From a virus, in the UHGV virus genome UHGV-1402771: a DNA stretch of 25,192 nt; one strand, given 5' to 3'. The position numbers are program-made. Below are positions 9,001-12,000 of the stretch, one piece after another (position 1 is the stretch's first letter; the number at the start of each line of letters is the position of its first letter).

Positions 9001-12000
9001 TGTGATTGACGACATAAAGCTCTGCGCCGTGGAATGGCACGTTGATAGTAGATACTGCTGTTGCTATACTTTTCATGTCAGTTTTTCCTCAAAATTTACT
9101 GGCGATTTAAGCCCGAGCTACTCGCAATAGCTTGGGCTTTACTCATTCTGGACAAACAATTCCATCCTTAGCTACTGACTCCTTTAGTCTCCTCAATACC
9201 TCATTACTGAACGACCGATCATCCTTTTTCGCGGACTGCTCCAAAGCCTTTTCTAGCCATTCTGGCATCCTTAATGTCTTAACTTTCATTTTTGCTCCTT
9301 TGTATATGGTACGCATACATAGTATTTAGGTACGCATTGATAGTCAATAGATACCTACATATCCTGTGGTAAATAATTATTCAGGATGCGCCGATGTCTG
9401 ATCGTAAGTACAAAAACCCTCAAGTGAATCTGAGGCTTCCTGTAGAGATAAAGGAACGTCTTATTGAGCTGGCTGAGGCTAATTCTCGTTCATTAAATGC
9501 TGAGATGGTCGCGGCACTTGAAGCGTGGACCGAAAAAAATAAACACATTCAAGCACTAGACCTTGCAACTATAGCATCGCGGTTGATAGAGCTTGAGCAT
9601 GAGGTTGAGAAGTTAAAATGTATGCATGGCAACGGTGAAAAATGAAACGCATCGCTATTTTGTTAATATTGTTCTTCTCTACAATAGTTTGCGCCAAACA
9701 AAAATCAGATAATGGCTATCTTAAAGGCCTGCAAGAACTCATGATAACTTCGAAATTTGCTGGCATGTGCGGCACAATCAAACAAATGGCAACATTTCAA
9801 GAATCAACAAAAATGCCTGGCGGAGATGAGTTCTTACAGCGTTTTCTGACCACAGAGCAAGCAAGACTTGGAATGAATCCACAGGAGTTTCTTGAAGCAT
9901 GCCAGAAGTCAATTTCAGCTTATACCAATTATTACAATCTAACTTCTGATAAATAATAGAAAGGATTTTATAAATAACTTTATGAAAAAATCACTATTAA
10001 TTATCCCGCTTCTGCTGGCTGGATGCGCAAAAGTAAGTGACTATCAAGCAAGTTGCGAACAACGCTATCCAAAGCTTAGTGATATGGCTAATTGCCTTGA
10101 TGCCAGCGTGAAGAACGACTCACGCATGGCATCAGCACCAACACCTAAGCTGTATGTCCTTGCTGCGAAGATGCTCGGGCAAGGTGTCGATGAAGGCAAG
10201 ATAAGTGACGCACAGGCAAGACTTGAGCTTCAGAATCTTTATGTTCAATTACAAAGCCAAGAACAAGCCCAACAAATAGCACAAAGCCAAGCATTCCAGC
10301 AGGCTTTATTGAATTATCAGGCTGTAAACACAATGCAAGCGATCGAGCAAAAAGCGAGACAGCCTGTTATAACTCAACCTTACCCAACGCGTGTTGACAC
10401 CTATACAAACTGCAATTCAGGATTTGGAAACACCGTCACATGCAACAGTAGCAGCAACATTAGATAAAGCTATTCATATTCATTCATACCGCTTAACGAG
10501 GCGACAATACCAGCTCTCGACAAGCGATTGAATTCATCGCTACCAATAGCATCGCGTATTGCTTTTACGGCGGCTTTATTTGCCATAAATCTGCGTTCCG
10601 CCGCCGCTAATGCTTCTTTACTTCCGCCAGCTCTTACTGCTTTCGTGGCTTCCTGAACTGCTTTCTCTATCGCATATCGGCCGCTACGCGTGGTGGCAAT
10701 TTTAGATACAGCACCTTTTAACCCGGCGCCAACTAAAGCACCTGCGGCAGCGCCTGCAATGCCCCCTCCTGCTCCACCAACAATGGCACCTGATGTTGAG
10801 TTGGCAATTGCATTTAACACTGTTGATGTGACGTTGGATAAACCGGCATCCAGATCGCGTAGTACATTGGCAGTTCTCCCTGTTCTTTCAATATACTGCT
10901 GAGGTTTCACTGCTGCTCTTGCAAGAGTGCCATATGCATCAGCAATTCTTCCGAGTTCTGAGGAATATCTGCTAATGGCTTTTACATTTTGTGGGGTAAG
11001 TATCCCTGCGATATGGTTAATTCCTGCTGCATCAGCTTTGCCACCACGTACACCATGCGAGATAGCATCTTGCAACATTGATGATATAGCAGGAACACGC
11101 TCTGATTCTGGCAGCGCGCGGATCATAGAATGGAACCCAGCAGGACCATTAAGACCTTTAGCTGACGATGATTGAAGGGATTTTACTCCATTCGTAATCA
11201 GTGCATCTGTTGCCAAATCACGCCCGAAAACAGACTCTGCACTCTCTTGTGCTGATAACCTCGCTTTAGACAGATCATTAGCTTTCTGCCAGTCATCAAG
11301 AAATCCGCCGTTTTCCGCCATTGTGCGCATATCATCAGTAATTTCCCGGCGTATTTCCCATGCTCTCCTTGCCGCATTTGCCTCTCCGCTACGCTTATAT
11401 TTTTGCTCCGCATCAGCAAATTTCGCTCTCCATGCTTTCATGCCATCAAATGTTACTCCACCTTGATTGTTTGCCTGAACAAACTGTTTCATTTCAGGAG
11501 TAAGCGGTATGCCAGCAGATCGCTCTGCCTGAATAACGGCATTACCATTTAGCATTCTTGCTTTTTGATTTGGCATTGTTGACCGCACGTCATCCCATGC
11601 CGCGCGCTCGGCATCCTTCATCTGATCAAGATTTTGAAGAATCCTTTGTTTTATAGCCGCACTTTTTTCTGATGCCGTTCCAGATGCGGCCCCAAATTCA
11701 TCAAGGTTTCGACTTAACTTTGATGATATTTCGTTAAATGCTGCCTGATGGGCGTCCTGAACAATTCCTGGTGTTGATGCCAATGCGCCTTCGGCTTGTG
11801 CAATTCCACGACTTCCAGATCGCATTCCTGGTGTTAATGCGTTTATATCAATTCCAGCAGACTCAGCCGCTTTTGCTACATCTTCGGACACATTAGCGGC
11901 CTGACTGGCAATTGACTGACGCCCAGCACCTGACTTTGCCATCCTGGAAACATCATTAGCAGAATTCAGTGCTGCACCACCAAGAGCCTGTGAAACCCTT

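What the first reader, a model, noticed from the sequence alone, without database searches (positions are those of the whole stretch)
9109..9139. Extended hairpin in the arc-ant intercistronic region, a possible sar-like antisense RNA terminator or attenuator
A 12-bp stem with one G-U pair and a 7-nt loop lies between the arc-like stop and the ant RBS, followed on the + strand by a short T-rich stretch. In P22 a small antisense RNA (sar) made from this intercistronic region represses ant translation, and this structure could be the terminator of a similar transcript. The T-run is weak, so this is tentative.
Basis: inference. Interest (0 to 1): 0.4.

Follow-up and report, generated by a model that had tools for sequence, protein, structure and literature searches.

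The report
Terminator hairpin of a sar antisense RNA
The hairpin is real and is most likely the 3' terminator stem-loop of a divergent copy of the phage P22 small antisense RNA "sar", which blocks translation of the antirepressor gene ant; this is a known regulator in a new sequence version, not a new mechanism.

Summary
The 12-bp hairpin at 9109-9139 exists as described. It is the only hairpin of that quality in the 25-kb window (0.125 expected by chance). The window is the immI region (mnt, arc, ant) of a CUS-3/P22-like E. coli prophage. The + strand from 9077 to about 9147 has every sequence-level feature of P22 sar RNA:

- **Promoter:** a near-consensus extended -10 promoter lies inside the first ant codons (9042-9070).
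- **5' end:** the predicted start, G9077, sits directly next to the ant start codon.
- **Stem-loop I:** it carries the anti-Shine-Dalgarno sequence in its loop.
- **Stem-loop II:** this is the finding, and it ends at the arc stop codon.

Rfam sar matches full length but below its threshold (29.3 bits against 43; E 7e-4). A covariance model built without this sequence type still finds it (33.6 bits, E 2.7e-5). In 34 distinct homologues upstream of ant genes, stem II shows compensatory changes in 7 of 13 pairs. It is more stable on the sar strand in all 34, with 88 G·U pairs there against 3 on the other strand. P22's own proven sar terminator has an equally weak T-run. Expression was not tested. 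It is a divergent member of a known family, and interest is low.

The parts
9042..9070 (+). Psar-like promoter inside ant codons 3-12: -35 TTGATA (9042-9047), 17-bp spacer, TG at 9062-9063, -10 TATACT (9065-9070)
   Evidence: scores it 10 of 12 with an extended -10 TG. It is offset from the ant ATG by the same distance as the annotated Psar of P22, to within 1 nt. A -10-like hexamer TA[TAG]A[CAT]T ends 3-7 nt upstream of the sar 5' end in all 34 distinct homologues, though it was located with a regular expression that required it.
9077..9147 (+). Predicted sar-like antisense RNA of about 67-73 nt. The 5' end at G9077 is placed by homology with P22; the 3' end at about 9143-9149 is inferred.
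   Evidence: Rfam RF00262 matches 9077-9143 at 29.3 bits, E 7e-4. Model R1 matches 9077-9149 at 33.6 bits, E 2.7e-5. The 71-nt fold has two stem-loops, -25.9 kcal/mol, z -5.5.
9077..9103 (+). Stem-loop I: a 6-bp stem (9077-9082 with 9098-9103) and a 15-nt loop that holds the anti-Shine-Dalgarno UUCCUC (9085-9090)
   Evidence: In the model-fitted alignment 3 of its 5 pairs show changes on both sides. This matches helix 1 of Rfam sar.
9109..9139 (+). Stem-loop II, the finding: 12-bp stem with G9115·U9133 and loop CUCGCAA; predicted intrinsic terminator and 3' stability hairpin of sar
9140..9149 (+). Terminator tail UACUCAUUCU. It overlaps the complement of the last arc codons and stop (CCA GAA TGA), which limits how T-rich it can be.
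   Evidence: The tail TCATTCTGG recurs in other alleles (L054, L063, L006).
8153..9076 (-). ant (antirepressor, 307 aa), the target gene. Its Shine-Dalgarno GAGGAA is the complement of 9085-9090, and its 66-nt leader (9077-9142) is fully covered by sar.
   Evidence: Pfam P22_AR_N at 3.9e-44 and P22_AR_C at 5.6e-28. It is 56% identical to P22 Ant.
9143..9289 (-). arc-like ribbon-helix-helix repressor gene (48 aa from ATG 9289, preceded by AAGGAG); its stop codon at 9143-9145 abuts the sar 3' end
   Evidence: Pfam Arc at 1.6e-5. It is 31% identical to P22 Arc. RefSeq annotates the identical 147-nt gene in E. coli UMNF18.
9319..9347 (-). Pant-like promoter for arc-ant (TTGACT-17-TACTAT), inside a palindromic operator-like region
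9394..9645 (+). mnt-like repressor gene (83 aa), divergent from arc-ant; it completes the immI module
   Evidence: Pfam Arc domain at 3.1e-10. CUS-3 annotates its homologue as mnt.

Best explanation
The hairpin is stem-loop II of a sar-type cis-antisense RNA in the immI (mnt-arc-ant) module of a CUS-3/P22-like E. coli prophage. The proposed mechanism has four steps.

1. RNA polymerase starts at a sigma-70 promoter buried in the first ant codons (9042-9070, + strand), about at G9077, directly next to the ant start codon.
2. It transcribes the 66-nt arc-ant spacer in antisense.
3. It stops at or just after the 9109-9139 hairpin, at the arc stop codon, giving an RNA of about 70 nt.
4. This RNA has two stem-loops. 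Loop I displays the anti-Shine-Dalgarno UUCCUC. Stem-loop II terminates transcription and caps the 3' end.

The RNA is perfectly complementary to the ant leader. Pairing sequesters the ant ribosome-binding site and so blocks Ant translation. This would also apply to transcripts that Arc and Mnt cannot control at Pant, namely late-operon read-through on its way to the tailspike gene.

Shown here: the structure, the promoter-like site, positional and structural homology to P22 sar, and selection on the + strand fold. Inferred from P22 literature: transcription, the exact ends, and repression of ant.
For: **Observation.** The hairpin is real and exceptional.

**Context.** The neighbours are a P22-type Ant, an Arc-like and an Mnt-like gene in the P22 arrangement. 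The window is about 97% identical to phage CUS-3 over its structural genes.

**Homology.**
- Rfam sar matches full length at 9077-9143 + (29.3 bits, E 7e-4).
- In the annotated P22 record, sar is 15021-15090, its terminator 15021-15058, Psar 15097-15125, the ant ATG 15091 and the arc stop 15022. This is the same layout to within 1-2 nt.
- Rfam scores at the same position in 16 related loci run continuously from 84.6 bits (CUS-3) through the 43-bit cut-off down to 25.8 bits.
- Model R1, built from 20 homologues that exclude the window/SEN22/L006 type, finds 9077-9149 + at 33.6 bits, E 2.7e-5, with filters off. It is the only significant hit in the window.
- R1 gives one hit per locus, next to ant, in 40 loci.

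**Promoter.** TTGATA-17-TATACT with TG upstream, 10 of 12.

**Structure under selection.**
- On a MAFFT alignment of 26 alleles, stem II is 94.7% paired and 7 of 13 pairs show changes on both sides. The covariation score is 0.42 against 0.247 in shuffles (0 of 500 reach it), and slid controls reach at most 0.157.
- Within the window subtype, G·U changes to U·G, C-G to A-U and A-U to G·U.

**Strand.** The hairpin is more stable on the sar strand in 34 of 34 alleles (mean -21.3 against -15.2 kcal/mol), with 88 G·U pairs there against 3 on the ant strand.

**Weak tail.** P22's tail AACTTTAC is no richer in T than the window's.

**Mechanism in P22.** sar is 68/69 nt, pairs with ant mRNA and blocks its translation (PMC12197685, PMC7968456). 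It is detected by small-RNA sequencing (PMC13397905). arc and ant are also transcribed from PLATE (PMC12111858).
Against: - No RNA data exist for this element, so transcription, the 5' and 3' ends and termination efficiency are all inferred.
- The Rfam score is below the curated gathering threshold (29.3 against 43 bits).
- The hairpin does not meet a simple intrinsic-terminator consensus, which asks for at least 5 T in 8.
- In this allele the strand asymmetry is small (-18.7 against -17.3 kcal/mol, a single G·U), so the window sequence alone does not decide the strand. The family does.
- R1 forces stem I into a slightly wrong register for this allele.
- The primary structure papers (Schaefer and McClure 1997) could not be read.
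Confidence: 0.87

Rival explanations
1. The hairpin acts on the - strand as a transcription attenuator or terminator between arc and ant, lowering ant transcription relative to arc.
For: The - strand RNA also forms a stable hairpin (-17.0 kcal/mol, z -3.2). It lies between the two cistrons.
Against: - The - strand tail is AAAUCGCCAGU, with no U-tract, and no terminator is called there.
- Across 34 alleles the - strand version is always weaker (mean -15.2 against -21.3 kcal/mol), because 88 G·U pairs on the + strand become C·A mismatches. This is the pattern expected if termination of arc-ant and late transcripts is avoided.
- The P22 record annotates the terminator on the sar strand only.
- The tailspike gene downstream depends on read-through of this region (PMC2629481).
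Confidence: 0.03
2. The hairpin matters mainly as a structure of the ant mRNA leader, as a stability or translation element or as the target-side stem-loop for antisense pairing, rather than as the sar terminator.
For: The complementary hairpin necessarily forms in the leader. In this allele it is nearly as stable as the sar version. In antisense systems the target structure does affect pairing kinetics (general knowledge).
Against: Family-wide G·U asymmetry shows that selection acts on the sar-strand fold. The leader fold as a whole is not exceptional (z -1.6). This role is compatible with the main explanation rather than exclusive of it.
Confidence: 0.06
3. It is a homologous but silent relic: the prophage keeps the sar sequence, but the RNA is not made or no longer regulates ant.
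For: No expression data exist. Prophage regulatory modules often decay, and the ant moron region is highly mosaic (PMC2629481).
Against: - The promoter is closer to consensus than P22's.
- ant, arc and mnt are intact.
- The identical 131-bp segment is kept at 99% identity or more in 32 E. coli genome records.
- Variants within the subtype keep pairing through compensatory or wobble changes.
Confidence: 0.03
4. It is a DNA palindrome bound by a protein (an operator), not an RNA structure.
For: It is a 12-bp inverted repeat with a 7-bp spacer, next to repressor genes.
Against: Homologues conserve pairing, not sequence: 7 of 13 positions change on both sides. G·T wobbles that make sense only in RNA are common, 88 in 34 alleles. 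The candidate Arc and Mnt operators lie at 9309-9358.
Confidence: 0.01

Closest known systems
sar RNA of Salmonella phage P22 (Rfam RF00262; 68/69 nt; Liao et al. 1987, Wu et al. 1987, Schaefer and McClure 1997)
   Same: The genomic slot is the same: antisense to the arc-ant spacer, 5' end next to the ant ATG, promoter inside the ant 5' codons, terminator ending at the arc stop. The architecture is the same, with two stem-loops and the anti-Shine-Dalgarno sequence in loop I. G·U wobbles sit in the middle of stem II, and the T-tail is weak. The target is homologous (Ant 56% identical).
   Different: - Only about 59% of nucleotides are identical over the RNA.
- Stem II is 12 bp with a 7-nt loop CUCGCAA, against 13-14 bp with a 4-5-nt loop in P22.
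- It has one wobble instead of three.
- It scores below the Rfam gathering threshold.
- The -35 element is much better (TTGATA against GTGTTA).
- The Arc partner is only 31% identical.
The same sar allele in Salmonella phage SEN22 and in E. coli prophages (for example UMNF18, ETEC4075, ST131 strain 4993)
   Same: SEN22 is about 90% identical over sar, with the same loop and the same arc linkage. The segment is 100% identical in several E. coli chromosomes.
   Different: SEN22 has a U·G where the window has a G·U at stem position 7, and it carries a P22-type Psar and ant 5' end. None of these records annotates an RNA there.
sar of phage CUS-3, the closest phage overall
   Same: The ant 5' end and Psar are almost identical, and the prophage backbone is the same.
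   Different: CUS-3 carries a P22-type stem II (Rfam 84.6 bits) and a different stem-loop I. It also has an extra 67-aa Cys-rich ORF between arc and ant. The window has exchanged the whole sar-arc segment for the SEN22 type.
Other short cis-antisense RNAs that occlude a ribosome-binding site (IS10 RNA-OUT, lambda OOP)
   Same: The logic is the same: a small, structured, constitutively promoted antisense RNA pairs with the 5' part of its target mRNA (general knowledge; PMC5415839).
   Different: The sequences are unrelated and the targets differ. OOP acts at the 3' end of cII through RNase III cleavage, and RNA-OUT overlaps the transposase start. These are analogues, not relatives.

Membership tests
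sar antisense RNA of P22-like immI regions (homologues of P22 sar) | Encoded antisense to the arc-ant intercistronic region, covering the ant ribosome-binding site, with the 5' end next to the ant start codon and the 3' end at the arc stop | tested here: met
   The match spans 9077-9143/9149 +. The ant ATG is at 9074-9076, the Shine-Dalgarno complement at 9085-9090 and the arc stop at 9143-9145. This is the layout of the P22 record.
sar antisense RNA of P22-like immI regions (homologues of P22 sar) | Own promoter (Psar) inside the first ant codons, pointing away from ant | tested here: met
   TTGATA-17-TATACT with TG upstream at 9042-9070 +, 10 of 12. The offset from the ATG is the same as for P22 Psar. 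Promoter activity itself was not tested.
sar antisense RNA of P22-like immI regions (homologues of P22 sar) | Two stem-loops: a 5' stem-loop with the anti-Shine-Dalgarno in its loop and a GC-rich 3' terminator stem-loop, both kept by covariation | tested here: met
   The fold is shown. In stem II 7 of 13 pairs are compensatory. In stem I 3 of 5 pairs are compensatory, on a model-fitted alignment.
sar antisense RNA of P22-like immI regions (homologues of P22 sar) | Linked to a P22-type antirepressor (P22_AR_N and P22_AR_C) with arc and mnt repressor genes | tested here: met
sar antisense RNA of P22-like immI regions (homologues of P22 sar) | Detectable sequence and structure homology to known sar RNAs | tested here: met
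   Rfam gives E 7e-4, full length. Model R1, built leaving out this subtype, gives E 2.7e-5 as the sole significant hit in the window. Intermediate alleles form a continuous series of scores.
Rfam RF00262 as curated | Score at or above the gathering threshold of 43 bits | tested here: not met
   The score is 29.3 bits, and the gathering-threshold scan returns nothing. SEN22 (32.4 bits) and eight other ant-linked alleles also fall below it. The curated model is narrower than the family found here.
sar antisense RNA of P22-like immI regions (homologues of P22 sar) | A discrete transcript of about 68-69 nt that ends at the hairpin | not testable with these tools
   This needs a Northern blot, Term-seq or in vitro transcription. 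The tail UACUCAUUCU is comparable to P22's AACUUUAC.
sar antisense RNA of P22-like immI regions (homologues of P22 sar) | Represses Ant synthesis post-transcriptionally by pairing with ant mRNA | not testable with these tools
   Complementarity is complete by construction. Function is inferred from P22 (PMC12197685, PMC7968456).
Canonical intrinsic (Rho-independent) terminator | A GC-rich hairpin immediately followed by a U-tract (at least 5 U in 8) | tested here: not met
   It is not called by the scan on either strand. P22's annotated sar terminator also fails the same scan, so the criterion does not discriminate within this family.

The most novel reading that the evidence does not exclude
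sar exists in discrete alleles built from exchangeable modules. Stem-loop I travels with the ant leader and stem-loop II with the 3' end of arc (for example, L116 combines an L014-type stem-loop I with the window-type stem-loop II). The window-type allele would then be a separate RNA-level specificity class. A resident prophage's sar would silence ant only of superinfecting phages with the same leader type, which adds an RNA layer to immI heteroimmunity among P22-like phages. A further, less likely twist is that the weak, codon-constrained tail lets some sar transcription read through antisense to arc and into mnt, which lies on the same strand.
Probability: 0.25. Interest if true: 0.35.

Novelty: new member of a known kind. 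Interest (0 to 1): 0.15.

Why it matters
The practical value is for annotation. This sar allele, and at least nine others found next to ant genes, score below the Rfam threshold. The phage and E. coli records examined do not annotate an RNA there, so the post-transcriptional brake on the antirepressor goes unseen in many P22-like prophages of E. coli and Salmonella. The comparative set assembled here gives strong covariation support for the two-stem-loop structure. It also gives a clean strand-of-action signal, G·U pairs on one strand only, which explains how a terminator can stop sar without stopping the arc-ant and late transcripts that cross it in the other direction. It does not open a new question in phage biology.

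Tried and rejected
- **Rfam at gathering threshold over the whole window:** no hit. The sar match appears only with E-value reporting.
- **Simple terminator scan:** it calls the hairpin on neither strand. I rejected this as evidence against termination because the same scan misses P22's annotated sar terminator and Psar.
- **The repeat finder for inverted repeats:** A seed of 8 misses the hairpin because the G·T splits the arms into 6 + 5 exact bases. I replaced it with my own scan.
- **First multi-locus Rfam call:** it exceeded the size limit and was repeated with fewer loci.
- **MAFFT and RNAalifold:** they recover stem II but not stem I, because the register of the 5' part differs between alleles. 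Stem I is supported only by per-sequence folds and a model-fitted alignment, which lean towards the structure.
- **Primary structure and kinetics papers (PMC1369469, PMC1369470):** not held. My recollection that Pant transcription activates Psar, and of where pairing starts, could not be checked and is not used.
- **Pattern scan for the window-type hairpin:** it also returned about 20 unrelated GC-rich terminators with the same CTCGCAA loop in other phages. They have no ant context and were set aside.
- **Rejected readings:** attenuator on the arc-ant mRNA, DNA operator, and the mechanical 36-aa + strand ORF at 9061-9171 as a gene.
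Full report
**Observation.** The sequence at 9109-9139 is AAGCCCGAGCTA / CTCGCAA / TAGCTTGGGCTT. It forms twelve contiguous pairs, one of them a wobble (G9115·U9133), with a 7-nt loop. As + strand RNA the hairpin folds at -18.3 kcal/mol (z -5.2; 0 of 200 shuffles as stable). The - strand version has a C·A mismatch and folds at -17.0 kcal/mol (z -3.2). My own scan of both strands of the 25-kb window looked for uninterrupted stems of at least 12 bp, with at most one G·U and a loop of 3-9. It finds this hairpin and no other, against 0.125 expected in shuffles.

**Context.** The window is a P22-like (Lederbergvirus) prophage. It is closest to E. coli K1 phage CUS-3, at about 97% identity over the structural genes and the endosialidase tailspike. 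Four genes surround the hairpin.
- ant (8153-9076, - strand) has P22_AR_N and P22_AR_C domains and is 56% identical to P22 Ant.
- The arc-like gene is 9143-9289 on the - strand (48 aa; Pfam Arc; 31% identical to P22 Arc).
- The mnt-like gene is 9394-9645 on the + strand.
- The late structural genes and the tailspike lie on the - strand on either side, as in P22.

The hairpin therefore sits in the 66-nt arc-ant spacer (9077-9142), 3 nt from the arc stop codon.

**Identity.** With E-value reporting, Rfam's sar model (RF00262) aligns over its full 68 positions to 9077-9143 +. The score is 29.3 bits, E 7e-4, below the 43-bit gathering score. The alignment places the finding as helix 2, the terminator. 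It places a 6-bp stem (9077-9082 with 9098-9103) as helix 1.

The annotated P22 record gives sar 15021-15090, its terminator 15021-15058, Psar 15097-15125, the ant ATG at 15091 and the arc stop at 15022. The window has the same layout to within 1-2 nt:
- A promoter-like site, TTGATA-17-TATACT with an upstream TG (10 of 12), lies at 9042-9070 + inside ant codons 3-12.
- The predicted start, G9077, lies directly next to the complement of the ant ATG.
- The 3' end falls at the arc stop.

The 71-nt RNA folds into two stem-loops (-25.9 kcal/mol, z -5.5). The anti-Shine-Dalgarno UUCCUC (9085-9090) lies in loop I.

**Comparative evidence.** A scan of viral contigs with the Ant N-terminal domain returned 80 loci. 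Together with P22, CUS-3 and SEN22 they give 34 distinct sar-like sequences, each directly upstream of ant on the opposite strand. Five results follow.
- Rfam scores at that position run without a break from 84.6 bits (CUS-3) through the threshold down to 25.8 bits. SEN22 scores 32.4 bits. The window is therefore one of many alleles outside the curated model's reach.
- Covariance model R1 was built from 20 alleles that exclude the window/SEN22/L006 subtype. It finds 9077-9149 + at 33.6 bits, E 2.7e-5, with filters off, and this is the only significant hit in the window.
- R1 gives exactly one hit per locus, next to ant, in 40 sources. It gives none in six loci whose ant has a different N-terminus.
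- On a plain MAFFT alignment of 26 alleles, stem II is 94.7% paired and 7 of 13 pairs change on both sides. The covariation score is 0.42 against 0.247 in shuffles (0 of 500 reach it), and slid controls reach at most 0.157.
- Stem I also covaries, in 3 of 5 pairs, but only on a model-fitted alignment.

Within the window's own subtype the stem changes G·U to U·G (SEN22), C-G to A-U (L006) and A-U to G·U (L109). Pairing on the + strand is always kept.

**Which strand?** This is the key test between the sar terminator and an arc-ant attenuator. In all 34 alleles the hairpin is more stable on the sar strand (mean -21.3 against -15.2 kcal/mol). The sar-strand stems hold 88 G·U pairs and the opposite strand holds 3. 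On the mRNA strand those wobbles become C·A mismatches. Selection therefore acts on the + strand RNA. The asymmetry also weakens the structure for polymerases travelling from Pant or the late promoter towards ant and the tailspike gene. The - strand tail (AAAUCGCC) has no U-tract. In this particular allele the asymmetry is small (-18.7 against -17.3 kcal/mol), so the argument rests on the family and not on the window alone.

**The weak T-run.** The tail UACUCAUUCU fails a simple terminator consensus. P22's annotated and experimentally characterised sar terminator also fails it; its tail is AACUUUAC. Other alleles have strong runs such as GCUGUUUUU. In the window the tail is the complement of the last arc codons and stop (CCA GAA TGA), which limits its T content. 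The real termination efficiency is unknown.

**Mechanism.** The following steps are inferred from P22. sar is a 68/69-nt RNA that pairs with ant mRNA and blocks initiation of Ant translation (PMC12197685, PMC7968456). It is seen in small-RNA sequencing of P22 infections (PMC13397905). arc and ant are also transcribed from PLATE (PMC12111858), and late transcripts must cross the ant moron to reach the tailspike gene (PMC2629481). The window element is perfectly complementary to the whole ant leader, including GAGGAA, and has the same architecture. The most likely function is therefore the same. The finding supplies the terminator and the 3' stability hairpin of that RNA. The -10 hexamer is made from ant codons Ser-Ile, AGT-ATA. 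ATA is a rare Ile codon in enterobacteria (general knowledge), which fits a promoter constraint on codon choice.

**Rivals.** The alternatives are an attenuator on the - strand (0.03), a leader-structure role that is compatible with the main reading (0.06), a silent relic (0.03) and a DNA operator (0.01). The evidence for and against each is listed in the Rival explanations section.

**Comparison and novelty.** In every feature testable from sequence this is a member of the sar family. It is about 59% identical to P22 sar and has a differently shaped stem II (12 bp with a 7-nt loop and one wobble). It falls below Rfam's cut-off, and no RNA is annotated at this site in SEN22 or the E. coli records examined. 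About 34 of 5,426 complete E. coli genomes carry this allele over at least 80% of 9030-9160. In all, 189 genomes match some part of that query, most of them only its first 50-60 bases, which are the ant 5' end with the Psar region. I rate it a new member of a known kind, of low interest. The mosaic exchange of stem-loop I and II modules between alleles is the only feature that might lead further.

**Limits.** No transcript, RNA ends or regulatory effect were measured. The primary P22 structure papers could not be read.

Noticed in passing
window 10098-10137 (inside ORF 9982-10467, + strand): A very stable 14-bp hairpin lies inside a lipoprotein-like moron ORF that has no Pfam hit. The 53-nt fold is -24.7 kcal/mol, z -6.1, and it is the lowest 42-nt folding energy in the window on both strands.
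   Followed up: partly
window 9309-9358: A nested near-palindrome, TAGGTAcgcATTGAtagTCAATagaTACCTA (9328-9358), lies between arc and mnt, and GGTACGCAT occurs as a direct repeat at 9309 and 9330. They overlap the -35 elements of the divergent Pant-like and Pmnt-like promoters. They are candidate Arc and Mnt operators and differ in sequence from those of P22.
   Followed up: partly
L001 (phage CUS-3, CP000711) 1629-2097: The stretch annotated only as 'bsq2 boundary sequence' holds three unannotated features: a strong sar match (84.6 bits), an Arc-like ORF (MKVKTLRMPEKLEKIL...) and a 67-aa Cys-rich ORF inserted between arc and ant. The epsilon34 genome paper stated that CUS-3 apparently lacks arc (PMC2629481).
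   Followed up: partly
L116, L106, L063 compared with window 9077-9149: sar alleles are mosaic. Stem-loop I types and stem-loop II or tail types occur in different combinations (L116 has an L014-type stem-loop I with the window-type stem-loop II; L106 and L063 have a P22-type stem-loop I with a window-type stem-loop II or tail). A recombination junction therefore seems to lie inside the RNA gene.
   Followed up: partly
L030-L035 (viral contigs with ant homologues matching from residue 8): These ant genes have a different 5' end, give no sar-model hit and have a different upstream region. Not all P22-type antirepressor genes are paired with sar.
   Followed up: no
L086-L091, L096, L098, L100, L104, L115, L121 and others: About 20 unrelated viral contigs carry canonical terminators of the form AAAGCCCC-N-GCTCGCAAC-N-GGGGCTTTTT. 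They share the window hairpin's CTCGCAA loop and AAGCCC/GGGCTT base but have no ant context. It is unclear whether this is coincidence or a shared terminator module.
   Followed up: no
window 9642-9956 and 9982-10467 (+ strand): Two signal-peptide or lipoprotein-like ORFs follow mnt in the position where P22 has sieA and orf59a. Neither has a Pfam match. They may be superinfection-exclusion or moron genes.
   Followed up: no
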